The notes beneath the pieces were generated by a model. That model did not search any database. It was not told the origin of the DNA and saw only the letters and a list, made by a program, of their open reading frames with translations. This document shows, piece by piece, positions 429-64,000 of a stretch of DNA of 64,000 nucleotides. Position 1 is the first letter of the stretch. The number at the start of each line of letters is the position of its first letter. Source of the stretch: Escherichia coli (GTDB lineage: Bacteria; Pseudomonadota; Gammaproteobacteria; Enterobacterales; Enterobacteriaceae); NCBI RefSeq assembly GCF_965641715.1, contig NZ_OZ282455.1, one strand, 5' to 3'. The translations under genes and the position numbers were made by a program.

Positions 429-2387
429 ATGCCTGTAACGAAGTGTGAACCAGAAACCACCCGCAAAGCAAGCCGTAAATCTGCAAAAACGCAGGAAACA
501 GTCCTGTCTGCCCTGCTGGCGCAGACGGAGGAAGTGAGCGTGCCGCTGGCCTCACTGATTAAGTCACCGCTGAATGTGCGCACGGTGCCGTATTCTGCGG
601 AGTCCGTCAGCGAACTGGCAGGGTCCATTCAGGGCGTCGGACTGCTGCAGAATCTGGTCGTGCATACCCTGCCTGGTGAGCGCTACGGTGTCGCCGCAGG
701 TGGTCGCAGACTGGCAGCACTCAATATGCTGGCTGAGCGTGGAATCATTCCGGCTGACTGGCCTGTCCGCGTGAAAATTATTCCGCAGGAACTGGCGACG
801 GCTGCATCGATGACCGAGAACGGTCATCGCCGGGATATGCACCCTGCCGAACAGATTGCCGGATTCCGCGCAATGGCGCAGGAAGGCAAAACAGCGGCAC
901 AAATCGGTGATTTGCTGGGCTATTCACCCCGCCACGTTCAGCGAATGCTGAAACTGGCAGACCTTGCGCCTGTCATCCTTGATGCGCTGGCAGAAGACCG
1001 CATCACCACAGAGCACTGTCAGGCGCTGGCGCTGGAGAACGACACCGCGCGTCAGGTGCAGGTGTTTGAAGCTGCCTGTCAGTCGGGATGGGGCGGAAAA
1101 CCGGAAGTACAGACCATTCGTCGTCTGGTGACCGAAAGTGAAGTGGCGGTGGCGGGGAACACTAAATTCCGCTTCGTGGGGGCTGATGCCTTCTCGCCAG
1201 ATGAACTGCGCACTGATTTGTTCAGCGACGATGAGGGTGGCTATGTGGACTGTGTTGCGCTCGATGCCGCCCTGCTGGAAAAACTCCAGGCTGTTGCAGA
1301 GTACCTTCGGGAAGCTGAGGGCTGGGGATGGTGTGCCGGACGCATGGAGGCCGTTGGTGAGTGCCGTGAAGATGCCCAGGCATACCGCAACCTGCCGCAG
1401 CCGGAAGCAGTGCTGACGGAGGCGGAAGAAGAACGCCTGAACGAACTGATGGCACGTTACGACGCACTGGAAAACCAGTGTGAGGAATCTGACCTGCTGG
1501 AAGCAGAAATGAAGCTGATGCGCTGCATGGCGAAGGTCAGAGCGTGGACGCCGGAGATGCGTGCCGGAAGCGGTGTGGTGGTGTCCTGGCGTTATGGCAA
1601 CGTGTGTGTCCAGCGTGGTGTGCAGTTGCGCAGCGAGGATGACGTGGCTGACGACGCTGACCGCACGGAACAGATGCAGGAGAAAGCGTCAGTGGAGGAA
1701 ATCAGTCTGCCACTGCTGACGAAAATGTCTTCCGAACGCACGCTGGCAGTCCAGGCGGCACTCATGCAGCAACCGGACAAATCTCTGGCACTGCTGGCAT
1801 GGACGCTCTGCCTGAATGTGTTTGGCAGCGGGGCGTACAGTAGTCCCGCCAGAATTTACCTGGAATGTGGGCATTACTCACTGACCAGCGCTGCGCCGTC
1901 AGGGAAGGAAGGTACCGCATTCATGGCGCTGATGGCAGAGCACTTTCGCCTTGCTGCCCTGCTGCCGGATGAATGGGAACGGGACATGACGACGTTCCTG
2001 TCACTCAGCCAGGAGGTGCTGTTATCCCTGCTCAGTTTCTGCACTGCATGCAGCATCCACGGCGTTCAGACCCGTGAGTGTGGTCACACGTCACGCAGTC
2101 CGCTGGACTCGCTGGAAACCGCCATCGGCTTTCACATGCGCGACTGGTGGCAGCCGACAAAAGCAAACTTCTTCGGACACCTGAAAAAGCCGCAGATTAT
2201 CGCAGCCCTGAATGAGGCAGGACTGTCCGGTGCCGCACGGGACGCGGAGAAGATGAAGAAAGGTGATGCGGCTGAACATGCAGAGCACCATATGAAAGAC
2301 AACCGCTGGGTTCCAGGCTGGATGTGTGCACCACATCCACAGACAGATGCCACTGAACGCACCGATAACCTGGCTGATGCCGCCTGA
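429..2387 (+). CDS. ParB-like nuclease domain protein (leading-region, 652 aa)
   Basis: Long ORF; N-terminal region has ParB/Srx-like signature (LQNLVVH...GERY.VAAGGRRLAAL); AAGGGG RBS 6 nt before the ATG at 429; lies upstream of psiB as in IncF/IncI leading regions. Confidence 0.8.
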   Translation: MPVTKCEPETTRKASRKSAKTQETVLSALLAQTEEVSVPLASLIKSPLNVRTVPYSAESVSELAGSIQGVGLLQNLVVHTLPGERYGVAAGGRRLAALNMLAERGIIPADWPVRVKIIPQELATAASMTENGHRRDMHPAEQIAGFRAMAQEGKTAAQIGDLLGYSPRHVQRMLKLADLAPVILDALAEDRITTEHCQALALENDTARQVQVFEAACQSGWGGKPEVQTIRRLVTESEVAVAGNTKFRFVGADAFSPDELRTDLFSDDEGGYVDCVALDAALLEKLQAVAEYLREAEGWGWCAGRMEAVGECREDAQAYRNLPQPEAVLTEAEEERLNELMARYDALENQCEESDLLEAEMKLMRCMAKVRAWTPEMRAGSGVVVSWRYGNVCVQRGVQLRSEDDVADDADRTEQMQEKASVEEISLPLLTKMSSERTLAVQAALMQQPDKSLALLAWTLCLNVFGSGAYSSPARIYLECGHYSLTSAAPSGKEGTAFMALMAEHFRLAALLPDEWERDMTTFLSLSQEVLLSLLSFCTACSIHGVQTRECGHTSRSPLDSLETAIGFHMRDWWQPTKANFFGHLKKPQIIAALNEAGLSGAARDAEKMKKGDAAEHAEHHMKDNRWVPGWMCAPHPQTDATERTDNLADAA

Positions 2388-2441
2388 TGAACAACCACAC
2401 CGCCCCGCCGGAGACGGGGCGGCAGCAAGGGAGATACCGTG

Positions 2442-2876
2442 ATGAAAACTGAACTGACCCTGAATGCCCTGCAGTCCATGAACGCACAGGAATATGAAGA
2501 TATCCGTGCTGCGGGAAGCGATATGCGCCGTAATCTCACTCACGAGGTGATGCGTGAAGTGGACGCACCGGCTAACTGGATGATGAATGGCGAGTATGGC
2601 AGTGAGTTCGGGGGCTTTTTCCCCGTCCAGGTTCGTTTCACGCCAGCCCACGAACGTTTCCACCTGGCATTATGTTCGCCGGGAGACGTCTCTCAGCTCT
2701 GGATGCTGGTTCTGGTGAATTGTGGTGGACAGCCTTTCGCCGTCGTTCAGGTGCAACATATCTTCACGCCTGTCGCTATCAGTCACACGCTGGCGCTTGC
2801 CGCGACACTTGATGCGCAGGGGTACAGTGTTAACGACATCATCCATATCCTGATGGCAGAAGGAGGTCAGGCATGA
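2442..2876 (+). CDS. psiB: plasmid SOS inhibition protein PsiB
   Basis: 144-aa product [27 protein letters not shown]...ILMAEGGQA matches my recollection of PsiB along its length; stop overlaps psiA start. Confidence 0.9.
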
Positions 2877-3592
2877 GCGCACGTTCACGGGCACTGATCC
2901 CCCTCAGCGCAGAGCAACAGGCCGCCATGCAGGCTGTGGCTGTCACCGAACAACGTCGTCGTCAGGGACGCACACTTTCAGCATGGCCTTATGCCAGCGC
3001 TTTCTTTCGCTGCCTGAATGGCAGTCGCCGGATTTCGCTGACCGATCTCCGCTTTTTTGCTCCTGCGCTGACGAAGGAGGAATTTCATGGCAACCGTCTC
3101 CTGTGGCTGGCTGCCGTGGATAAACTGATTGAAAGTTTTGGTGAAGTCTGTGTTCTTCCCCTGCCATCCGATGCGGGGCATCGTCTGTTCCCGTCCGTTC
3201 CTTTTCGTGAAGGTGAGCGGCGTCGTCAGAAAACCACGCTGACAGAGCAGAAATACAGCCGCCAGCGGGAACGTGAGGCAGAACGACGGGAACTGGAATA
3301 CCAGACATGTTTTGCTCAGGCGCAGATTGACCTTGCGTTTCATACTCCCGCCACGGTCGGAAGCTGGTTGTCCCGCTGGTCTGGTGTTGTTGAGGAGCAT
3401 GATCTGGAAACGATTTTCTGGGGGTGGTGCGGGCGTTTTCCATCACTGTCATCATTTGACCGGTTTTTCTGGCAGGAGGAACCACTCTGGCGGCTGATTT
3501 TTGAAGCCGGTGAGGCCGGTCGTGGTGCACCGGTACAGGTACGTGCACTTGAGCAGTGGATGATCCCGAACAAGCTGGAGAACGCAATATGA
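2873..3592 (+). CDS. psiA: plasmid SOS inhibition protein PsiA
   Basis: 239-aa ORF immediately after psiB with ATGA overlap; size and position as in F/IncI psiB-psiA operon. Confidence 0.8.
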
Positions 3593-4185
3593 TGAAATCA
3601 GACGAACAATATCACGTTCCCGTGTGGATGCGACCTCTGTTGCCGTTGCTCTGCAATACCGGTGGTAATGATCCGGAGGAACTGCTGAATGATACAGAAA
3701 CCACCGCCAGTGCGAATATTGTCCGTTATGTACTGATAGTTGCAGTGCGGTCGCAGATTGATCTGCTGCAGCTACTGTACAGGAAAGGACTGTTGCGCAC
3801 AGAGATACCAGGTGGCTTTTCACCGGAAGAAGCGCAGGAACTCCTGGATAATCTGGTGCGCAGCCATATCAGCAAGGCGCTGTCGGGTGAGCGAATGGCA
3901 GCCCGTGACAGAAATGCCGATCTGACCTGGATTCGCCAGCAACTGGTCGATGCCGCCTGGTTTGTCCGTGCCACACTGGAAGCGCATGGGATGGGCGTCG
4001 GAAATGAGAGTCCCTCTGCTCCGCCGGAGACAATGCCGGACATACAGACACGGGAACTGGTTATGTTGATCAAGCGACTGGCATCATCGCTGAAAGCGGT
4101 GAAACCCGACAGTAGCGTGGTGCGTGAAGCGCAGGACTGGCTGTGCGACAGAAAACTTGTGGATATCACAGATATTCTCCGGTGA
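3589..4185 (+). CDS. hypothetical protein, translationally coupled to psiA
   Basis: ORF whose ATG overlaps the psiA stop (ATGATG); no family recognised. Confidence 0.55.
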   Translation: MMKSDEQYHVPVWMRPLLPLLCNTGGNDPEELLNDTETTASANIVRYVLIVAVRSQIDLLQLLYRKGLLRTEIPGGFSPEEAQELLDNLVRSHISKALSGERMAARDRNADLTWIRQQLVDAAWFVRATLEAHGMGVGNESPSAPPETMPDIQTRELVMLIKRLASSLKAVKPDSSVVREAQDWLCDRKLVDITDILR

Positions 4186-4199
4186 ACCAGACATGTATA

Positions 4200-4647
4200 T
4201 TTTACGCAGGGACACGCCGATCATGATCGTTTCATATCAGGGGTGGTCTGGAGGTCATGCGGCGTGTCCTCTGCACTCGCCGGAATAAGGAAGTCGCCGG
4301 CGGCTCCGCTTTTACCCGGCCATGCGGGGCATGGCCTTGTGGGTTTTCAGCTCTGTGGCCTCAGCGTCGTGTGCGGGCTGTGCCGTGCCTCCATCTTAGC
4401 CGGGCTGGCAGGGATGCAAGGGTACGCTTCGCCGCTGCGGTCACCCGGTCCCTCCTTCCCGTCTGCCGTGATTTTCCGGTCGTTCACCCGCTCAGATTTC
4501 GCGGTCTCACCCTCCAACTCCCGCCAGCCGTGTGCGTCAGGCTGCGGCTTCCCTTGCGCCCTGTGCATCCCCGCCTTATCGCCCGGCTTTTATGGAGGCA
4601 CGGCACCGCCCGGTGCCGCAGAACATGTGACTATGGAGGATTCGGGA
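4200..4647. promoter_or_regulatory. GC-rich structured leader upstream of ardA; candidate single-strand promoter region
   Basis: Roughly 450 bp of GC-rich sequence with no convincing coding signal (it only appears as an in-frame extension of the ardA ORF); inference from the known ssDNA-promoter arrangement upstream of leading-region genes. Confidence 0.3.
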
Positions 4648-5148
4648 ATGTCTGTTGTTGCACCTGCTGTATACGTTGGAACCTGGCACAAATACAACTG
4701 TGGAAGTATCGCCGGACGCTGGTTTGACCTGACCACGTTTGATGATGAGCGCGACTTTTTCGCCGCCTGCCGTGCTCTTCACCAGGATGAAGCCGATCCT
4801 GAACTGATGTTTCAGGATTATGAGGGATTCCCGGGGAATATGGCCTCTGAATGCCATATCAACTGGGCCTGGGTTGAAGGCTTCCGCCGGGCACGGGATG
4901 AAGGCTGCGAAGAGGCTTATCGTCTCTGGGTGGATGATACCGGTGAGACGGATTTTGACACCTTCCGCGATGCCTGGTGGGGCGAGGCTGACAGTGAGTA
5001 GGCTTTTGCGGTTGAGTTCGTCAGTGATACCGGCCTGCTGGCTGACGTGCCGGAGACGGTGGCGCTCTATTTTGACTATGAGGCGTATGCGCGGGATTTA
5101 TTCCTGGACTCCTTCACCTTTATTGACGGTCATGTGTTCCGTCGGTGA
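4648..5148 (+). pseudogene. ardA: antirestriction protein ArdA interrupted by an in-frame amber codon at codon 118 (4999-5001)
   Basis: [33 protein letters not shown]... matches remembered ArdA; ORF stops at TAG 4999-5001 but the same frame continues AFAVEFVSDTGLLADVPETVALYFDYEAYARDLFLDSFTFIDGHVFRR* to 5148, giving the 166-aa ArdA length if the TAG were CAG. Confidence 0.8.
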
Positions 5149-5496
5149 TTTACTCCCCCGCTCCGGCGGGGGTATGGCCTGCCAGGCCGCCGGAAAACCC
5201 TGGCAGGCTTACGCCTGCCTGAAATGCAGGAGGGCCGCGCCTGCGGCGCTGCCCTTCCTGCCCGTCATGGTGTGAGGCATTTTTCTGTTATGTCGTTTCT
5301 GTTGTTCTGATTTCCGGAGGCGGGGACACCTTCGGCTCCCGGCTGCCTGGCGGCATCCGGTCGTCAGGCCCGACTCCGACAGGCAGCTGCTGGCGCACCC
5401 GCCAGTCTCCGCCGAACCCGCTGGCGCGGTTTCGGGCTGCCGCTACGGTCCGATGTCTGAAAAACCAGGCTTGCAGCGACCGTTCCGGTCGCGCCG

Positions 5497-17907: not shown

Positions 17908-18140
17908 GACAAAGTCTCCATTTCTGGAATTTAAATCAAACGGAAAGGTTAAAAATTTATTTGCAGGCGATAAGAGCTAACCAGAGGAATTAGCCGTGCG
18001 ATAAAAGGATTGTTGCAGATACGAAAGTCGTTAGAATAGCTGCGGGCGCTTGAGGCTGTATGCCGAAAGCGTTTTGTGGACGGTATACAGCAGAAAGCCC
18101 CTGGAGATTTTTTTATCAATCAACCAAGGGCTCTACTGTA

Positions 18141-18344
18141 ATGCCTAGACAACATTATAGTAGCCCGATAACCGCCGTAAGGCAATGGAGGGGCTATGAT
18201 GCCACAGCGAACGTTTTTAATGATGTTAATCGTCATCTGTGTGACGATTCTGTGTTTTGTCTGGATGGTGAGGGATTCGCTTTGCGTACTCCGGCTCCAG
18301 CAGGGAAACACAGTGCTTGTGGCAACGTTAGCCTACGAAGTTAA
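18141..18344 (+). CDS. pndC: PndC (mok-type overlapping reading frame)
   Basis: Reading frame overlapping pndA and ending inside it, as in hok/mok and pndA/pndC. Confidence 0.45.
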   Translation: MPRQHYSSPITAVRQWRGYDATANVFNDVNRHLCDDSVFCLDGEGFALRTPAPAGKHSACGNVSLRS

Positions 18345-18674: not shown

Positions 18675-18828
18675 CGGATTTTCTCTCTGTATTTATGGGT
18701 AGTTATCGAACTGAATGTGCCAGTTTTTTCAGGAGACGGCAAAGTTGAGATGATTGGTTCTGATTCAGAGCATGAGTTTCCTCGGTGTGACGGGCATGTC
18801 GGGCGGATTTTGAGAAACAACAGATGTA

Positions 18829-18860
18829 AAAAAACCGACTGGTGAGGTCGGTTTTTTTAC
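18829..18860. terminator. bidirectional rho-independent terminator
   Basis: A7-ACCGACTGGTGAGGTCGGT-T7: hairpin flanked by A-run and T-run. Confidence 0.7.
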
Positions 18861-18890
18861 TGTTCCGTTACAGAGTGGGTGGCCCTGACC

Positions 18891-18914
18891 GGAGGAAATC
18901 TCTTTTCAACTAAC
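18891..18914 (+). repeat. direct repeat copy 1 (GGAGGAAATCTCTTTTCAACTAAC)
   Basis: 24-bp element repeated at 19078-19101 with one mismatch. Confidence 0.7.
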
Positions 18915-44216: not shown

Positions 44217-45041
44217 TTACCAGGGTAATAAAGACGTATTAAATAAGCTAACAGGTAGTATTTGCCCTGTAATAAGGTTCCCGGCAAGGCCAGGTCTCAA
44301 CGTGACGCGTCGCAAAGACATTGTTGTATTCTGCCTGGTTGTATATTCAGTTAACCATTTTCTTTTTTCATCGTTCAGAAGTGTTGGTGATAATGATAGT
44401 GCCGGATATATTACAGAGCCATTTATTTCTTTTTTCTGTCTCAATATTACCCCGCAATATTCTCTTTTCGTGTTTCCGGCGAAGGGGAAACTATGCCAGA
44501 AAATAACTTCAGTGTTGCTGCTATCACTAATAAGCATTCTGAAATTATCAGCAGTATCTGGCCATTCACCGGACAACGCTATCGGATAGTTTTCATGGCC
44601 ATTCAGCCAGTCCGGATTGAGATTAAAACATTCAGCAAGATGTTCGAGAGCGTCAGCTGAAAGATAGTCTGCAAGTCTGGCCGGGTCCTGTATAACCGTG
44701 GAGCGGATATTCCATGGCGACAGCAATGTTGCCAGTAATGGCGCATTTATATCATGCGACAGCATGATGTATTCAATTCTGCTTATTATGTTTCCTGTGG
44801 TGTTATCCGCAGGCATAAACATATTATGAAGAGCATCCTCAAGCAGGATTCGGGTTAAATCAGCGGTGGATATGGCTAATTGTTCGCTCATTATCCCCAG
44901 AACTTCTCTTACCCCTTGGGGGTAACGGACCTGCAGAGGTGTCGGGTTTATCTGACGACCGTTGATGAGTTTTTCGCCGATTGCTTTTTTGTCCAGCGAG
45001 AGCATCATTCGGGCCGCAATACCGGTCGTATTCAGTCTCAT
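44217..45041 (-). CDS. traE: hypothetical protein at the traE position
   Basis: 274-aa ORF; name by position only. Confidence 0.5.
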   Translation of the reverse strand: MRLNTTGIAARMMLSLDKKAIGEKLINGRQINPTPLQVRYPQGVREVLGIMSEQLAISTADLTRILLEDALHNMFMPADNTTGNIISRIEYIMLSHDINAPLLATLLSPWNIRSTVIQDPARLADYLSADALEHLAECFNLNPDWLNGHENYPIALSGEWPDTADNFRMLISDSSNTEVIFWHSFPFAGNTKREYCGVILRQKKEINGSVIYPALSLSPTLLNDEKRKWLTEYTTRQNTTMSLRRVTLRPGLAGNLITGQILPVSLFNTSLLPW

Positions 45042-45191
45042 TGTTCCTCCGACTGAAAAAGTCTTTTCAGCTCATGTGGTTATTGTATCTTCGGTGTTTT
45101 TTCTGGTGAAACGAATAATTTCGATCATGCAGATCGAATGTGTTTGGCGAGTTGTTGCAACTCGCCTTTCTGTATGTGTTTTGAATGATGT

Positions 45192-46346
45192 TTACAGCGG
45201 GGTGCTGCCCGGGTTCAGAGGGCAAATCATAATGTAGTCAGGGTCGTTAACAGGTAACGCTCCGGGAGATGGGACACGTTCGCCTTTCTGTGCTGCAATG
45301 GCCAGTGTACGCAACAAAACCTCACTGGCGCGGTGAACTGCTTCCTCTTTCGTTGTGGCAGTGACGTGAAGGTTATCAAAATCACCGATCTCAATACGAT
45401 GCGCTTTCTGCCCATTTTCTTCATCGATGGTCGTGATATGGGCAGGATACGGCACAAACCATGCTGCCACTTTTTGTGTCTGCCGCCGGCGGGCATCAAG
45501 CTTACTGACCAGTTGCCATGCACGAAGATGAGTATACCGTTTCAGCATATTCATGGAACGATGTCCTGATATTGCAGCAATCTCCATTACATTCAGGCTA
45601 CCCAGTTCGAAGAAGCGGCTTATTGCTTCATGCCGTAGATCGTGAAAATGCAGGTCCTCGATGCGAAGTCGTTGTGTGGCTATTCTCCAGGCATTTTTAA
45701 AGCCGGATGCGGTGTAATCAAAAACATTGCCGTGGAGATTAACGGGCATCATCTGAAGAAAGTTACGGGCACGTCTGGACAGAGGAACATCCCGTGAGTG
45801 ACCGTTTTTGGTTTCAGGTAAATGAGCCACACCGTGGCGCAAATCAATGTGCTCCCAACGTAAGGCCAGTATTTCGCCCTGCCGCATGGCTGTCTCAAGG
45901 GCAAGATGGAAAATGACATACAACATCAGATTTTTTTCGCGGAAATAGCGAGAAAGGCGACGTTCTTCTGAAGACGTTAGCCGGCGATCTCGTCCCGAGG
46001 ATACTTTCGGCTTGCGAACCAGTTCAACCGGGTTAGTACGACAGGTTCCCCATTCAACACGAGCAATATTGAACAGAGATGACAGAAGGGCGAGTTCAAG
46101 ACGTACAGTATTACCTGTAATGGGTTTACCCGTTCGGGGGTTGATTTCTGCTAAACGAACGTCTCTGTATGTAGCAATATCAACGGTTGTTATTTCGTCC
46201 ATATTCCGAAGGGCAATGGGATATCGCTTGATAACATTGCTCCGGTAAAACTCCTGTTGATGCCCTTTCTTGTGAACAGAAACTGTTTTCAGGTACTTAT
46301 CCAGTGCGCGTGACAGGGACATTTTACGGATGCGTGGAGACGGCAT
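45192..46346 (-). CDS. rci: shufflon-specific tyrosine recombinase Rci
   Basis: 384-aa product from MPSPRIRK with tyrosine-recombinase motifs ([14 protein letters not shown]); adjacent to 19-bp sfx repeats. Confidence 0.9.
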
Positions 46347-46397
46347 GCTAACCTCAAAAGAGGCAAAAAATAATGCCAACAATCATTCTCTGCAAGC

Positions 46398-46416
46398 GTG
46401 CCAATCCGGTACCTGG
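46398..46416 (+). repeat. sfx 19-bp repeat 1
   Basis: gtgccaatccggtacctgg. Confidence 0.85.
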
Positions 46417-46871
46417 GGCGCTCCTAAAATTCAATTCACAACGCAGACCTACAACATAGCTAAAAACACTCGTAATTTAAGGCTCGGGGTCCATGCATAT
46501 TGCTCATGGACTTACCTGAATGGCTCACCCTTTGGTGGTTTTCAACAGGTATATTCCGACCAAAACAACGTTTGGTATGTGAGTAATTATGCTTGGGGAA
46601 ATTATGAGTCTGGTGGGACCATATCAGTCACATGCCTCAATCTTCCTGGTGCTGGAGCTTAATTAAAGGGGCAACAGTAGGCATCGACATGTTCCTCATC
46701 AACACCATCACCAATACCGTACATGCGTGTTCCAGTCATAATGTATCCAGTCGGACATTGAATCGGCTTGTAATAGATCGAACCACCACTCTTACCGCCG
46801 ATAAAGTGATTCATTGCTACGGATGATTTGTACCAATTACATGCTGAGTAATTAATTTTATTACCCCCTGA

Positions 46872-46890
46872 CCACCGACCGGATTGGCAC
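46872..46890 (-). repeat. sfx 19-bp repeat 2 (inverted)
   Basis: ccaccgaccggattggcac. Confidence 0.8.
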
Positions 46891-46898
46891 TGGCCTAC

Positions 46899-46917
46899 GT
46901 GCCAATCCGGTACCTGG
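46899..46917 (+). repeat. sfx 19-bp repeat 3
   Basis: gtgccaatccggtacctgg. Confidence 0.85.
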
Positions 46918-47404
46918 AAATCATCATCAGCGTCGATATGGACGAATATAAAAACATTTACGTTATATCCCAAAAACACACAGGTCTTAGGGAGGTTTAA
47001 ACTGTGTATTAACACCTATCGTATTGACGGGCGTGAAATGGCAGAAACAGAAGTCGTTCCTATTGACATGCCTGACTCTAACGGCGAGATGACTTGGCAA
47101 GCCAAAAACTACACACAGTATTCGTCCTACTTTATGAAGATTACTTGCTTGAAATAGCTTATTGGCAAATGGCATATACAGTTATTGAACCATTCTGATC
47201 TTCGGTTGTATCGCACGCAGCCGACCATGAGTTATTGGCTGATGGGAATGACCTGGTAAGCCATATGTAACCAGTTCGTGAGGTGCATATTCCGCCGCCA
47301 CCTGTAACACGTTTTCCAGTTGGACAGGTAGCTGTTGCTCCAGGAAAGCGCCAACCTGTGGCCTGTGCTGTAGCAATTTGAAGCTCACCAGATCCTACCT
47401 TTCT

Positions 47405-47423
47405 CCAGGTACCGGATTGGCAC
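47405..47423 (-). repeat. sfx 19-bp repeat 4 (inverted)
   Basis: ccaggtaccggattggcac. Confidence 0.85.
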
Positions 47424-47431
47424 GTAGGCCA

Positions 47432-47450
47432 GTGCCAATCCGGTACGTGG
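47432..47450 (+). repeat. sfx 19-bp repeat 5
   Basis: gtgccaatccggtacgtgg. Confidence 0.85.
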
Positions 47451-47650
47451 GGGACAATAGGTGGAAAACTCAAAGTTACTCAGCTTTCCACCACAGGTTA
47501 TCTGGGGCAATTCGACTTCTGTGCCATTGCCAGAATGGGCAACGCAGAGGATGCCCACTACTGCCAGGTAGTTGAGAGCCCAGCAGGTTCACGCAAATGG
47601 TACAAATACGAGCATAAGACAGGTTGTATTGCGTCGTGTGTAACGCTCAA

Positions 47651-49087
47651 TTAAGTTTGATATCCAAATACTGAAAATACCCCGGCACCACATGATGTAT
47701 TTTCTGTTGGATAGGATGTTATCTGATAGGAAGTACCTGCAGGTACAGCAAAGCTGATAAAGGCTGTTTTTCCATATGCAGGGTTATTACTGGCATTCAC
47801 GCTAATTAGCGTCCCACCAACATATCCCTGCAGTCGGGATGTATTTGCACATGCACCTCCGGCAGATCCTCCATTACCTCCAGATGCATAAATAAACAAT
47901 GTACTGCCCCCTGAATTCCGCCCTGAGAATGAACCTCTATGTGAACCTAAGTTTGTGTAAGAACCATTGAGCGAACCAGAAGTCTTCCACGTACCGGATT
48001 GGCACGAAAGTATTGCCCCTGTATTATCGCGGCCTACAAGGCCGTTAGGCGAACATGATGCGCCAGCAACGGCAGTTCTTTCCAGTTGTAAGTATTCACC
48101 AGTATAAAGGCGACCATCAGCCCGAACAGTACCGCCTTTCACCTGACCGCCGGTATAGATGCCCTTGTTGTTTACACTTCGAACCCATGATCCGTCGGAC
48201 ATATAAAATCCGCCACCGTGAGTTTCATTGAGCCAGCCTTTGCTGTTACGAGTAATTAACCAACCATTATTACTTCTGATATCACCGCCAGCGGTGACAT
48301 TTACGTCAAAGTTTCCGCTATTGCCTTTTACCTGACCGCTGAAAGTGCCATTTACACCATTCACATTGCCGCTGAAATTACCAGTCTGGGCATTTACTGC
48401 CCCAATGTTATTCAGGTTATTTGATCCCATATCAATGGCCGTGTGCATTTTGTTTAAGTCAGGGCGACCATTGACCTGGAATCTGTAAAGACGATCAGTG
48501 TCCTCTGCTGCACCACTAAGTTCATCTGTCGATAACAGTACGGCAATATGCCCGTTACCGCTTTTGGCACCATAATTACTTAAAGCTACTGACCAGGAAC
48601 GTAATGCACCTGTGGCTGTTTTGCCGTCCTGGATATATCCACCAAGACCAGTGGTAATATCCTTAGCCATCTGGATAAGTGCTTTCACTGGATAAGGGGT
48701 GCCACCACTGGATACAACCATTGCCTGTAGTAATTCCGGGTTTTGGGCGTTTCGAACTACATATGCCTGTAACCGCTGCCCCTCGCTGTTTGTCTCAATA
48801 AAGCCGCTGGACAAAAAGCCGGTATTTTTCAGCATGGTTGTCGTGATAACGGCAGGGGTTGATGTGGTACTACTTGCCTGGAGAGTTGTGTAGTTTTTCC
48901 CTATATAAGAGCGGGCTGCACTGGCCCAGTTGCTGACAAGACGAGCTTCAGCCTGCCAACCTTTGGTTTTTAAATAGTCCTGCCATATGCCTGCTCCCCA
49001 GGCAACTATGATCATAACAATCAATAAAGCCGCGCCAATTTCCAGCGATGCCCAGCCTCGGTCATATTTTTTCATCAGATTACCCAT
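47651..49087 (-). CDS. pilV: thin-pilus tip adhesin PilV (constant region fused to the currently adjacent shufflon segment)
   Basis: 478-aa ORF with type IV prepilin-like N-terminus; crosses sfx repeat 6 into the shufflon. Confidence 0.85.
47987..48005 (-). repeat. sfx 19-bp repeat 6 (inverted), junction with the pilV constant region
   Basis: ccacgtaccggattggcac; encodes the ...CQSGTW... junction of PilV. Confidence 0.85.
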
Positions 49088-49731
49088 AGTGGTTGATAAA
49101 GATTATCCAGTAGCAAAAGGACATGGCCAAGACACAGCCATGGACCCAGTGGGCCTTCTTTATGTCCTTTTATGCACCATGTTGAATGCCATAAGACAAA
49201 TCCTCCTGCGCCCAGCAACACACTCCATATGGCGTTATATAGCCCTGACCATGCGGTAATACCTGCAATAAGCCACAGGTCTCCTGTGCCAATATTAAGA
49301 CGATGGCGGTTAACCAGTTTATGCAGACAGAATAAGACAATTGCGGCAGAGACAATTTCTGTTGCACGGAGCCACCATATATCAGTTGTGATTTGTGATA
49401 ATATTCCAGCGATTAAAAAACGCCTGGTGAATGTACCAGGTAAGAGGCCTGTTAGTGCATCCGTTACTGCCATTTGCAGCATGAACGAAAGAATAAGAAC
49501 AGCATGAATACGGTAGAGAAGTTGGGATGGCGATAAAATAATTAATGCCACAGCTATACTATATAGCCATATTCCTGACAGAACTGCAGTGTGTGTCTTA
49601 TACCAGAGATGTTCTGTATCAGATAAAAAATAACGAACTCTGAATAACAGAGTTCGTCCAATAATGGAAAATATGAACATCAATGGGAGGATATAAACAG
49701 GGGAGAGACTTATGCCTACGATTGTCTGCAT
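49075..49731 (-). CDS. pilU: prepilin peptidase PilU
   Basis: Polytopic membrane ORF; start at internal Met gives 218 aa; synteny. Confidence 0.7.
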
Positions 49732-52014: not shown

Positions 52015-53568
52015 TTAGGCATCATCGATGCTGAGGCGTTCGTCTTCGTCCAGAGGGATGATTCTGTCGGCTTCAAGAGGGTCCACCAGGCCTTCATTGA
52101 TACGGCGAAGAAGATGCTCTACACGACTGATGCCATGCATGTTTTCAAGCCAGTATTTACGTGCTGCAACTTTGCCGCGTGTTTTCAGAATCTGAAATAA
52201 GCGATTATCAGGTTCTATCACTTCAGCAATTACGGTCCTGCCGGTGAGGCCTTTACCTATTTCACCGCGCTTTCTGCCGTTAATAATTACGTCGTGATTA
52301 CAGTCGGAGCATCCGTGAGGATTTCGGAACCAGATATTATCTGTACTGCAGAGTGAATCTTTATTGCAGTGCCGCTCAAGGTAAGCGCGGTCGTCTTCGC
52401 TAAGTTCTGGTACTCGCTTTTCCCATGGAATACGGCAGGAGGGACACAGAGTTGGTACAAGACGCTGGCTGATCATCCCAATCAGTAATTGCGCATCGCA
52501 AATAAGATCGGCATTCATACCCATCGTAATCATCCGCTCCGGTATACCCAGAGCTGAGTTTGTATGTAATGTCGTCAGAACGATGTGACCGGTCTGAGCC
52601 GCGTAGGTTGTTGACATCATCGAGACAAGATCGCGCATTTCCCCTTCCATGATGGCATCGGGGTCAAGTCGCATTGCCGATGAAATAGCACGACTCCATG
52701 CCAGTTTGACGGCCTCTTCGTCGGATTTGTCACAGATAATCGGGGTTTGTGTTGCCCCCAGAATCTGTCCTTCCAGCGGATCTTCGATCGTCAGCAGGTG
52801 TCGCCCCTGATTATCGTCAAGATATACACGGCAGGCACTGCGTAACGTTGTTGATTTACCTGAACCTGTTGGACCAGACAGAACTATTTTCCCTTCCGGG
52901 CGGCGCAGCATGACGTTCAGCAACCGGATTTGCTCCGGTATAAAGCCCAGTTGCTTAAACGTGGGAACTTTGTCTCCGTCATCGGGTATCAGGCGCATAA
53001 CTGCAATCAGACCATCTCCCGTAGGTCTGTGACTGTATCGTGCACCAAATATTCCTATTTTTCGCATTAATTGTGGGGACAGGCGCGCATCCTGTTCCCT
53101 TTGAGGGAAGAAACTGGTTTCAGTCACATCAGCCATTGACAGAATGGCTGTTGCGCAAAGTGAATAACCCAACGCAGGTTGATCTTCATCTACAGTTTGC
53201 AGTTCACCGAATATTCTCATGCGAACTTTGAAAATAGACTCTGAAATTAAAAAATGAATATCTGAAGCACCAAGTTTTCTGGCTGTTTCAAAATAGGAGA
53301 GAACTTTCTTCTCACTTTCACTAACATCTGCAAGATCTTTCAGATGAATAATCCGTTCTTTCGGACCTTTATTTTCATCATCCTGACCGGCTTCCTGTAA
53401 CTCAGACAGCGAGACTACTTTTGGGGTGATGTCAGGGTATAAGTTTAGCAGTTCCTGGAGATTACTCTGTACGTCAGGTCTTGTTCGCTGATTTGTTTCG
53501 ATGAGAATTTCATGGGTGTCTCCCCGGGATATAAAAAGGAGAGCATCCTTCAAATTATATTTGTCCAT
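52015..53568 (-). CDS. pilQ: PilQ assembly ATPase (GspE-like)
   Basis: 517-aa ORF with Walker A GPTGSGKST and Cys-rich C-terminal cluster. Confidence 0.8.
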   Translation of the reverse strand: MDKYNLKDALLFISRGDTHEILIETNQRTRPDVQSNLQELLNLYPDITPKVVSLSELQEAGQDDENKGPKERIIHLKDLADVSESEKKVLSYFETARKLGASDIHFLISESIFKVRMRIFGELQTVDEDQPALGYSLCATAILSMADVTETSFFPQREQDARLSPQLMRKIGIFGARYSHRPTGDGLIAVMRLIPDDGDKVPTFKQLGFIPEQIRLLNVMLRRPEGKIVLSGPTGSGKSTTLRSACRVYLDDNQGRHLLTIEDPLEGQILGATQTPIICDKSDEEAVKLAWSRAISSAMRLDPDAIMEGEMRDLVSMMSTTYAAQTGHIVLTTLHTNSALGIPERMITMGMNADLICDAQLLIGMISQRLVPTLCPSCRIPWEKRVPELSEDDRAYLERHCNKDSLCSTDNIWFRNPHGCSDCNHDVIINGRKRGEIGKGLTGRTVIAEVIEPDNRLFQILKTRGKVAARKYWLENMHGISRVEHLLRRINEGLVDPLEADRIIPLDEDERLSIDDA

Positions 53569-62913: not shown

Positions 62914-63230
62914 CTAAAAACGCTATCACCGAGTTCCTACGCTCATTGGTGATAGCCCAGACGGGGGTAGGAATACCGGCGTCATCGGAAACCGGCCAGG
63001 CTAATGCCTGCCCCGCCTGAGCTACCATAGATGACGACAAGAAATACAAGTTCCTGTCTTTATGGTATGGCAAAAAACGACGCCAAATGAAGAAATTAAC
63101 TTCTGCGCCGACGATGACTACGCGGGTTCCTACGCCCGATCACAGTTTTGCCTGTGACCAGTAAAGGGTACTTAGTATAACGCACCGAGTCAACTAACAG
63201 CTTAAAAAACATACAAAAAAGCGTCAAAAC

Positions 63231-63600: not shown

Positions 63601-63892
63601 CAGAAAAATCTGCTTTTAAAAATAGATTTTATTTTTTTGACGCAGGTCAAGATTAACTTATTAGAGGTATCAGTGAGGAGGCACTGGAAGAGAAGAGATC
63701 GTTGTAATGCTTTTCAAATTAACGTAAAGCGGGTATATTTCGGCTGTTATTAGCTGTGCAGAGGGTGGCACTCTGTGGAGCAAAGCGGCGAAAGCCGGAC
63801 GGCAGAATGCGCCATAAGGCATTCAGGAGAGATGGCATGTACGGACAGTAAGTCAGAAGACTGAAGATGTTCCGGAAGCCATAAAAGGAAAA

Positions 63893-63943
63893 CCCCCACT
63901 ATCTTTCTTACGAACTTGGCGGAACGACGAAAGATAGTGGGGG
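63893..63943. promoter_or_regulatory. IncI-type replication-control stem-loop (target/antisense Inc RNA region); rep genes lie beyond the window
   Basis: Perfect 15-bp stem CCCCCACTATCTTTC / GAAAGATAGTGGGGG with a loop containing TTGGCG, the loop hexanucleotide I recall for IncI/IncB copy-number control RNAs. Confidence 0.45.
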
Positions 63944-64000
63944 CCTCACAGAATACGGGTAAAGTATAATGAAACCGTACCAGAGATTCAACCCTGTGCA

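What the first reader, a model, noticed from the sequence alone, without database searches (positions are those of the whole stretch)
46398..48005. Shufflon with three invertible segments and six sfx repeats; current pilV fused to the rightmost segment
Six 19-bp repeats in alternating orientation delimit three segments, each encoding alternative PilV C-termini on both strands. This is fewer segments than the four-segment arrangement I recall for R64, so the recipient-specificity repertoire may differ. The sequence is a snapshot of one inversion state.
Basis: partly seen in the sequence, partly recalled or inferred. Interest (0 to 1): 0.35.

Follow-up and report, generated by a model that had tools for sequence, protein, structure and literature searches.

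The report
Three-segment IncI1 plasmid shufflon (ColIb-P9 type)
This is the well-known DNA-shuffling switch of IncI1 conjugative plasmids, which swaps the tip of a mating-pilus adhesin; it is the common three-segment version that lacks segment D, so it is real but ordinary.

Summary
Window 46398-48005 holds six exact 19-bp sfx repeats (GTGCCAATCCGGTNNNTGG) in strictly alternating orientation. No seventh copy appears, even at 5 mismatches. The repeats bound three segments of 455, 487 and 536 bp. These lie between rci (45192-46346, minus strand) and the constant part of pilV (48006-49075, minus strand).

Each sfx reads in frame (CQSG[T/R]W) into an open tail of 73-117 aa. All six tails are 100% identical to R64's C, C', B, B', A' and A. 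Only R64's D' tail and its sfx are missing. The gene as written encodes PilVA. Rci is 100% identical to R64 Rci.

The three-segment A/B/C form is already described. The ColIb-P9 reference record has the same six sfx, and the literature states that ColIb-P9 has three segments and that the IncI1-ST3 blaCTX-M-1 lineage lacks D. In PLSDB, segment A is found in 1089 records and D in only 648.

The nearest relatives (99.7-99.8% identity) carry D in the same arrangement. The window differs from one of them that was compared base by base by a clean 329-bp deletion between two directly oriented sfx sites.

Verdict: a correct reading of a known element, with low interest.

The parts
45192..46346 (-). 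rci, the shufflon-specific tyrosine recombinase (384 aa from the ATG at 46346)
   Evidence: 100% amino-acid identity to R64 Rci over 384 aa. Pfam Phage_integrase PF00589, E=5.9e-24.
46398..46416 (+). sfx 1 (core GTGCCAA + right arm TCCGGTACCTGG); reads into the C tail; rci-proximal end of the shufflon
   Evidence: Its left arm TTCTCTGCAAGC is the same as that of the rci-proximal sfx in R64, ColIb-P9, R621a and p17-AB00090.
46417..46871 (.). Segment C (455 bp). C tail on + (coding 46399-46659, stop at 46662). C' tail on - (coding 46889 down to 46662, stop at 46659).
   Evidence: 100% nucleotide identity to R64. Tails identical to R64. Labelled 'shufflon protein C / C'' in CP035009 and 'PilVC' in LC567094.
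46872..46890 (-). sfx 2 (right arm TCCGGTCGGTGG); reads into the C' tail (CQSGRW...)
   Evidence: It is a hybrid site: the left arm of the D' sfx joined to the right arm of the C' sfx, compared with the D-bearing relative p17-AB00090.
46891..46898 (.). 8-bp spacer TGGCCTAC between back-to-back sfx 2 and sfx 3. In close relatives segment D and its own sfx sit immediately left of this spacer, between it and sfx 2.
   Evidence: exact 329-bp deletion relative to p17-AB00090 (L002 3292-3620).
46899..46917 (+). sfx 3; reads into the B tail
46918..47404 (.). Segment B (487 bp). B tail on + (46900-47154, stop at 47157). B' tail on - (47422 down to 47162, stop at 47159).
   Evidence: 99.8% nucleotide identity to R64. 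B matches UniRef 'Shufflon protein B' and LC567094 'PilVB'. B' matches SwissProt SHU4_ECOLX.
47405..47423 (-). sfx 4; reads into the B' tail
47424..47431 (.). 8-bp spacer GTAGGCCA, the reverse complement of the other spacer
47432..47450 (+). sfx 5 (right arm TCCGGTACGTGG); reads into the A' tail
47451..47986 (.). Segment A (536 bp). A' tail on + (47433-47651, stop at 47654). A tail on - (48004 down to 47654, stop at 47651), which is the tail currently expressed.
   Evidence: 99.8% nucleotide identity to R64. The 117-aa tail matches SwissProt 'Shufflon protein A' SHU1_ECOLX and the 73-aa tail matches 'Shufflon protein A'' SHU2_ECOLX.
47987..48005 (-). sfx 6, at the end of the pilV constant region; the fixed site through which every tail is joined
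47651..49075 (-). pilV as currently assembled, i.e. PilVA (474 aa from MKKYDRGW; an in-frame ATG at 49087 would give 478 aa). The constant region is 48006-49075.
   Evidence: Pfam Shufflon_N PF04917, E=4e-185, residues 33-361. 462/474 identity to R64 PilVA, with all 12 substitutions in the constant part. The exact sequence is already on record on 120 contigs.

Best explanation
Identity. This is an R64/ColIb-P9-type shufflon of an IncI1-complex conjugative plasmid, in its three-segment (A, B, C) form.

Mechanism. The tyrosine recombinase Rci, encoded immediately downstream, recombines any two inversely oriented sfx sites by crossing over in the 7-bp core GTGCCAA. This inverts one segment or a group of segments. 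Each sfx encodes the shared peptide CQSG(T/R)W in the pilV frame. Whichever sfx ends up next to the pilV constant region therefore splices a different C-terminal tail (A, A', B, B', C or C') onto the thin-pilus tip adhesin PilV. The tail decides which recipient lipopolysaccharide the type IVb thin pilus binds, and so which recipients are used in liquid mating. The window shows one of 48 possible arrangements (rci | C> <C' | B> <B' | A'> <A | pilV) and encodes PilVA.

Loss of D. Segment D and its sfx were removed by a precise recombination between the directly oriented D' and C' sfx sites.

Shown here: the anatomy, the identity to R64 parts, the frame continuity, and the deletion junction. Inferred from published R64 work: that inversion occurs in this plasmid, and that the tails determine LPS specificity.
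For: Parts and identity.
- Six exact sfx in alternating orientation, with no further copies.
- Six in-frame tails 100% identical to six of R64's seven.
- Segment nucleotide identity to R64 of 100%, 99.8% and 99.8%.
- Rci 100% identical to R64 Rci and a Phage_integrase member. PilV carries Shufflon_N.
- SwissProt/UniRef and record annotations label the tails A, A', B, B', C, C'.

Signs of sfx-core recombination.
- Across the window, R64, ColIb-P9, R621a and p17-AB00090, each right arm stays with its tail while left arms stay with their position. This is what crossover in the core predicts.
- Plasmids 99% or more identical hold the same segments in other orders and orientations.

Three-segment form and D loss.
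- The ColIb-P9 record has the same six sfx variants and no D, and the literature says so (PMC5430464).
- D is absent from all IncI1-ST3 blaCTX-M-1 plasmids (PMC8305760).
- PLSDB full-length counts are A 1089, B 1069, C 818, D 648.
- The window equals p17-AB00090 minus exactly 329 bp. The flanks show 0 mismatches in 493 bp and 2 in 1115 bp, and the junction is a hybrid sfx.

Context and background.
- The locus sits at the end of a pil operon in an IncI1 backbone: synteny with R64, a PK-repZ hit, and NikB/Trb/Tra matches.
- sfx architecture and Rci's preference for inversion are described in PMC11852207. LPS ligands are cited in PMC5430464 and PMC9045228.
Against: A single assembled sequence cannot show that inversion is happening in this plasmid. 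PMC8305760 reports apparently stable shufflon arrangements within clones of one IncI1 lineage. Shufflons are known hot spots for mis-assembly (PMC5430464), so both the arrangement and the absence of D rest on the assembly being right. Whether Rci itself made the D deletion is not shown. Rci is reported to disfavour recombination between direct sfx sites (Gyohda 2006, cited; summary in PMC11852207).
Confidence: 0.96

Rival explanations
1. Assembly artefact. The plasmid really has four segments and seven sfx like R64, and segment D (or the true order) was lost when an assembler collapsed reads across the repeated sfx sites.
For: Shufflons are documented as among the hardest regions to assemble, and mis-assemblies have been reported (PMC5430464). 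The closest relatives at 99.7-99.8% identity carry D at the very junction where the window lacks it.
Against: The junction is a perfectly formed sfx-spacer-sfx unit. Every right arm is still paired with its proper tail. The identical D-less arrangement occurs in two independent records, pCH42 and pUA1139. D-less shufflons are widespread, including ColIb-P9 (PMC5430464; PMC8305760). No trace of D is found anywhere in the window.
Confidence: 0.04
2. Frozen shufflon. All the parts are present but the system no longer inverts in this plasmid, so PilVA is effectively fixed.
For: Only one state is visible in the window. One study inferred stable arrangements within clones of IncI1-ST3 plasmids (PMC8305760).
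Against: Rci is 100% identical to the experimentally active R64 enzyme. All six sfx are exact. Near-identical plasmids show different arrangements. The stable IncI1-ST3 case has a 3-kb ISEcp1-blaCTX-M-1 insertion in segment B, which this window lacks.
Confidence: 0.08
3. It is an IncI2 (R721-type) three-segment shufflon rather than an IncI1 one.
For: R721 also has three segments (A, BD, C) (PMC5430464).
Against: The segments are 99.8-100% identical to R64 A, B and C. There is no BD-type segment and no D' tail. The backbone is IncI1-complex.
Confidence: 0.01

Closest known systems
ColIb-P9 (IncI1) shufflon, three segments A, B, C
   Same: Same six sfx variants (ACC x3, CGG, ACG x2). Same three segments. 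Six tails identical at the amino-acid level. No D. Both records currently express PilVA. Described in the literature as three-segment (PMC5430464).
   Different: A different inversion isomer: ColIb-P9 is written rci|B> <B'|C'> <C|A'> <A|pilV, whereas the window is rci|C> <C'|B> <B'|A'> <A|pilV. The PilV constant region here has 12 substitutions relative to the R64/ColIb-P9 protein.
R64 (IncI1) shufflon, four segments A-D with seven sfx; the archetype
   Same: Rci 100% identical. sfx consensus identical. Segments A, B, C 99.8-100% identical. Same position between pilV and rci at the end of the pil operon.
   Different: The window lacks segment D (about 310 bp), its sfx (right arm TCCGGTACTTGG) and the 99-aa D' tail. 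That gives six rather than seven PilV variants.
p17-AB00090 (NZ_MT158479) and NZ_CP117011: closest sequenced relatives, four-segment
   Same: 99.7-99.8% identity. For p17-AB00090, the same order and orientation of C, B and A was verified directly. For CP117011, co-linearity is inferred from its two-piece alignment and its roughly 330-bp longer span.
   Different: They carry D and its sfx between C' and B. Compared with p17-AB00090, the window is the exact 329-bp excision product.
IncI2 shufflons (R721: A, BD, C; TP114: four two-ORF segments)
   Same: Same logic: an Rci-family recombinase, 19-bp sfx sites, and a PilV constant region plus swappable tails (PMC5430464, PMC9045228).
   Different: Different plasmid group, different sfx variable triplets, and different segment composition. 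Not compared at sequence level here.

Membership tests
IncI1 R64-type shufflon | Rci tyrosine recombinase encoded next to the invertible region | tested here: met
   ORF 45192-46346 (-) is 384/384 identical to R64 Rci. Pfam PF00589, E=5.9e-24.
IncI1 R64-type shufflon | Multiple 19-bp sfx repeats (7-bp core GTGCCAA plus 12-bp right arm TCCGGTNNNTGG) in inverse orientations | tested here: met
   Six exact copies in + - + - + - order. 0 of 100 shuffles reach the observed count. Architecture as described in PMC11852207.
IncI1 R64-type shufflon | pilV with a constant N-terminal region (Shufflon_N) ending at an sfx | tested here: met
   PF04917, E=4e-185, residues 33-361. The constant region ends at sfx 47987-48005.
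IncI1 R64-type shufflon | Each invertible segment carries alternative pilV 3' ends in frame with the sfx-encoded CQSG(T/R)W | tested here: met
   Six open tails, identical to R64 A, A', B, B', C, C'.
IncI1 R64-type shufflon | Located at the distal end of the thin-pilus (type IVb) pil operon of an I-complex plasmid | tested here: met
   ORFs upstream of pilV match R64 gene order and sizes for pilU/T/S/R/Q. A GspE/PilB-type ATPase and a GspF-type protein were detected. PK-repZ lies at 63885-64000.
IncI1 R64-type shufflon | Segments actually invert in vivo, singly and in groups | not testable with these tools
   Only indirect evidence: near-identical plasmids hold other isomers, and right arms track tails while left arms stay positional.
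R64 four-segment archetype (A, B, C, D; seven sfx; seven tails) | Presence of segment D, its sfx and the D' tail | tested here: not met
   No D sequence in the window (blastn best E=0.67). There is no seventh sfx.
ColIb-P9 three-segment form (A, B, C; six sfx) | Exactly segments A, B and C with six sfx and no D | tested here: met
   Same sfx set and tails as NC_002122. PMC5430464 states that ColIb-P9 has three segments.
PilV adhesin recipient-specificity switch | Different tails bind different recipient LPS structures and change the liquid-mating host range | not testable with these tools
   Taken from published R64 work as cited in PMC5430464 and PMC9045228. The tails here are identical in sequence to R64's.

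The most novel reading that the evidence does not exclude
The clean 329-bp loss of D is an Rci-catalysed excision between two directly oriented sfx sites. That reaction is one the asymmetric sfx design is thought to suppress. D is the only segment that is always bracketed by direct rather than inverted sfx. Rare excision of this kind, recurring independently in different IncI1 lineages, would explain why D is the segment most often missing from sequenced plasmids (648 records against 1089 for A).
Probability: 0.3. Interest if true: 0.2.

Novelty: already known. Interest (0 to 1): 0.07.

Why it matters
The practical value is for annotation and epidemiology. The window comes from an IncI1-complex conjugative plasmid whose thin-pilus adhesin can take six forms (A, A', B, B', C, C') and is written here as PilVA. 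The D' form is unavailable. Knowing this avoids two errors: treating shufflon isomers as different plasmids, and treating the missing D as a new variant. It does not change what is known about shufflons.

Tried and rejected
- Records not held. R64 under AP005147 and p105CF under MK764025 are not in the plasmid collection. R64 was obtained as NC_005014 instead.
- Papers not held. The primary shufflon papers (Komano 1987 NAR, Gyohda 1997, Ishiwa & Komano 2003) could not be read. Their content is cited only second-hand through PMC5430464, PMC9045228 and PMC11852207.
- Unreliable label. The author label 'pilVA' in the LC5670xx records cannot separate A from A', because it is applied to both the 117-aa and the 73-aa tail. 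SwissProt names were used instead.
- Invalid number. The position-by-position comparison with pCH42 (1985 mismatches) is wrong because of a 1-bp offset, and should be ignored. Co-linearity with pCH42 rests on the single-piece 99.4% BLAST match and the sfx/tail map.
- No specific NCBIfam model. NCBIfam has none for PilV or Rci; only generic sub-threshold Xer hits appeared.
- R721-type hypothesis rejected. The idea that the three segments might be the IncI2 R721 type (A, BD, C) was rejected on sequence identity to R64 A, B and C.
- Degenerate seventh sfx or D remnant. None was found.

Full report
**Observation**

The region 46398-48005 contains six exact copies of the 19-bp motif GTGCCAATCCGGTNNNTGG at 46398(+), 46872(-), 46899(+), 47405(-), 47432(+) and 47987(-). 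With up to three mismatches allowed, the 64-kb window has seven matches. Shuffles average 0.89, and none of 100 reaches seven. The seventh match is a 3-mismatch site at 52917 inside a pil gene and is at chance level.

A rescan of 45000-49300 at up to five mismatches, and a scan for the 12-mer GTGCCAATCCGG at up to two mismatches, returned only the same six.

The repeats alternate in orientation. They bound three segments of 455, 487 and 536 bp, and 8-bp spacers (TGGCCTAC and its reverse complement) separate the back-to-back pairs.

**Anatomy**

Both flanking genes are on the minus strand. pilV (47651-49075, or 49087 from an upstream in-frame ATG) carries the Pfam Shufflon_N constant region (E=4e-185). 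It reads through the sfx at 47987-48005 into the rightmost segment. Immediately beyond the leftmost sfx lies a 384-aa tyrosine recombinase (45192-46346; PF00589).

In the pilV frame every sfx encodes CQSG(T/R)W. Each of the six sfx continues into a stop-free tail of 73 to 117 aa, two convergent tails per segment.

**Comparison with reference plasmids**

I fetched R64 (NC_005014), ColIb-P9 (NC_002122), R621a (NC_015965) and several close relatives.
- R64 and R621a have seven sfx. ColIb-P9 has six, as does the window.
- All six tails in the window are 100% identical in amino-acid sequence to six of R64's seven. The missing one is the 99-aa D' tail, together with its sfx (variable triplet ACT).
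- The segments are 100%, 99.8% and 99.8% identical in nucleotides to R64.
- Rci is 384/384 identical to R64 Rci.
- PilV is 462/474 identical to R64 PilVA, and all 12 substitutions are in the constant region.

**Segment labels**

Labels were fixed from independent annotations.
- The 474-aa R64 protein with the 117-aa tail is SwissProt 'Shufflon protein A' (SHU1_ECOLX). The 430-aa form with the 73-aa tail is 'Shufflon protein A'' (SHU2_ECOLX).
- The RKVGSG tail is 'Shufflon protein B'' (SHU4_ECOLX).
- The KSSSAS tail is 'Shufflon protein B' in UniRef and 'PilVB' in LC567094.
- The two tails of the 455-bp segment are 'shufflon protein C' and 'C'' in CP035009, and 'PilVC' in LC567094.

The window therefore reads rci | C> <C' | B> <B' | A'> <A | pilV constant region, and as written it encodes PilVA.

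**How it works**

The published R64 model is as follows. Rci recombines inversely oriented sfx sites. An sfx has a variable 12-bp left arm, a 7-bp core and a conserved 12-bp right arm. This asymmetry is thought to restrict Rci to inversion (PMC11852207). Inversions change the PilV C-terminus, which binds specific recipient LPS structures and sets recipient specificity in liquid mating (PMC5430464 and PMC9045228).

The sequences agree with crossover in the core. Across the window, R64, ColIb-P9, R621a and p17-AB00090, each right arm always stays with its tail (A and A' ACG; B, B' and C ACC; C' CGG; D' ACT). The left arms stay with their position: for example, TTCTCTGCAAGC is always next to rci and GGCAATACTTTC is always at the pilV constant end.

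Plasmids 99% or more identical to the window hold the same segments in other orders and orientations (multi-piece matches; maps). With three two-ended segments there are 2^3 x 3! = 48 arrangements and six PilV forms (formula from PMC5430464). Actual inversion in this plasmid cannot be shown from one sequence.

**The missing segment D**

The nearest relatives (NZ_CP117011 at 99.8%, p17-AB00090 at 99.7%) are about 330 bp longer across the locus. For p17-AB00090 the sfx/tail map shows C, B and A in the same order and orientation as the window, with D between C' and B.

The window equals p17-AB00090 minus exactly 329 bp (D plus one sfx). The flanks show 0 mismatches in 493 bp on one side and 2 in 1115 bp on the other. 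The retained site is a hybrid: the left arm of the D' sfx, the core, and the right arm of the C' sfx. This is the product expected from recombination between the two directly oriented sfx sites that bracket D.

In all three D-bearing records examined, D is bounded by its own sfx and a second sfx in direct orientation. It cannot invert alone and is always exposed to excision. Whether Rci or host recombination or slippage over the shared 13 bases did this is not resolved. Rci is reported to disfavour direct-site recombination (Gyohda 2006, cited).

**Is it new?**

No. Four lines of evidence show the three-segment form is established.
- PMC5430464 states that R64, ColIb-P9 and R721 have four (A-D), three (A, B, C) and three (A, BD, C) segments respectively. 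The ColIb-P9 record confirms six sfx with the same variant set.
- PMC8305760 reports that IncI1 shufflons have 'up to four' segments, and that D is absent from all IncI1-ST3 blaCTX-M-1 plasmids.
- In PLSDB, full-length hits (at least 80% of the query) number 1089 for A, 1069 for B, 818 for C and 648 for D. Several hundred sequenced plasmids carry A but not D.
- The exact arrangement of the window also occurs in pCH42 (LC567086) and pUA1139 (MW655526). The window's exact PilVA sequence is already on record on 120 contigs.

**Rivals**

- Mis-assembly is the main caveat, because shufflons are notoriously hard to assemble (PMC5430464). However, the junction is a well-formed sfx-spacer-sfx unit, the pairing of right arms with tails is intact, no D sequence exists anywhere in the window, and D-less forms are common. 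I put this at about 4%.
- A frozen shufflon is unlikely. Rci is identical to the active R64 enzyme, all sfx are exact, and segment B is not interrupted. This contrasts with the ISEcp1-blaCTX-M-1 insertion in the IncI1-ST3 lineage.
- An IncI2 R721-type identity is excluded by sequence and by the IncI1 backbone.

**Verdict**

The feature is the textbook IncI1 shufflon in its ColIb-P9-type A/B/C form, currently encoding PilVA. Compared with R64 the repertoire lacks only D'. It is already known and of low interest. The only mildly interesting point is the clean excision of D between direct sfx sites, together with the apparent frequency of D loss across IncI1 plasmids.

Noticed in passing
window 46872-46898, compared with L002 (NZ_MT158479) 3273-3628: The closest relatives (99.7-99.8% identity) carry segment D at this junction. 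Compared base by base with p17-AB00090, the window is the exact 329-bp excision product, with a hybrid sfx made of the D' left arm and the C' right arm. In all three D-bearing records examined, D is bracketed by direct rather than inverted sfx sites.
   Followed up: yes
PLSDB hits to window 46918-47404; L007 (LC567094) 1942-5457: Many IncI1 plasmids match segment B only from base 32 onward, and in two places. In pS127 this is an ISEcp1-blaCTX-M-1 insertion inside segment B that truncates the B tail. Segment B in the window is intact.
   Followed up: partly
PLSDB counts; L006 (CP035009): Segments are lost unevenly across sequenced plasmids: A in 1089 records, B in 1069, C in 818 and D in 648. 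Some plasmids keep only two segments; for example, pLC1477_18-1 has four sfx and only B and C.
   Followed up: partly
window 48006-49075 (pilV constant region): There are 12 amino-acid substitutions relative to R64 PilV. Eleven are clustered in the first 93 residues, while the tails are identical. This suggests a mosaic or allelic N-terminal pilin region.
   Followed up: no
window 47651-47654: The convergent A and A' reading frames end on overlapping stop codons (TAA on the plus strand and TAA on the minus strand share bases).
   Followed up: no
window 62945-63032 (-): Rfam C4 antisense RNA family hit (77.5 bits, gathering score 45), about 0.85 kb upstream of the repZ leader. Its role here was not examined.
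   Followed up: no
window 18044-18201 (+) and 18826-18913 (-): A sok antitoxin RNA (134 bits) and an AgrB-like antisense RNA (55 bits). These indicate type I toxin-antitoxin loci (Hok/Gef and DinQ-like toxins are annotated at the equivalent R64 positions).
   Followed up: no
window 63885-64000 (+): The PK-repZ regulatory pseudoknot (145 bits) is cut by the window end. It marks the I-complex repZ replicon, so the window runs from the leading region and nikB through tra/pil to the replication control region.
   Followed up: no
window 52917-52935 (-): An sfx-like sequence with 3 mismatches (GAGCAAATCCGGTTGCTGA) lies inside the ORF at the R64 pilQ position (GspE/PilB-type ATPase). It is consistent with chance (0.89 such matches expected).
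   Followed up: partly
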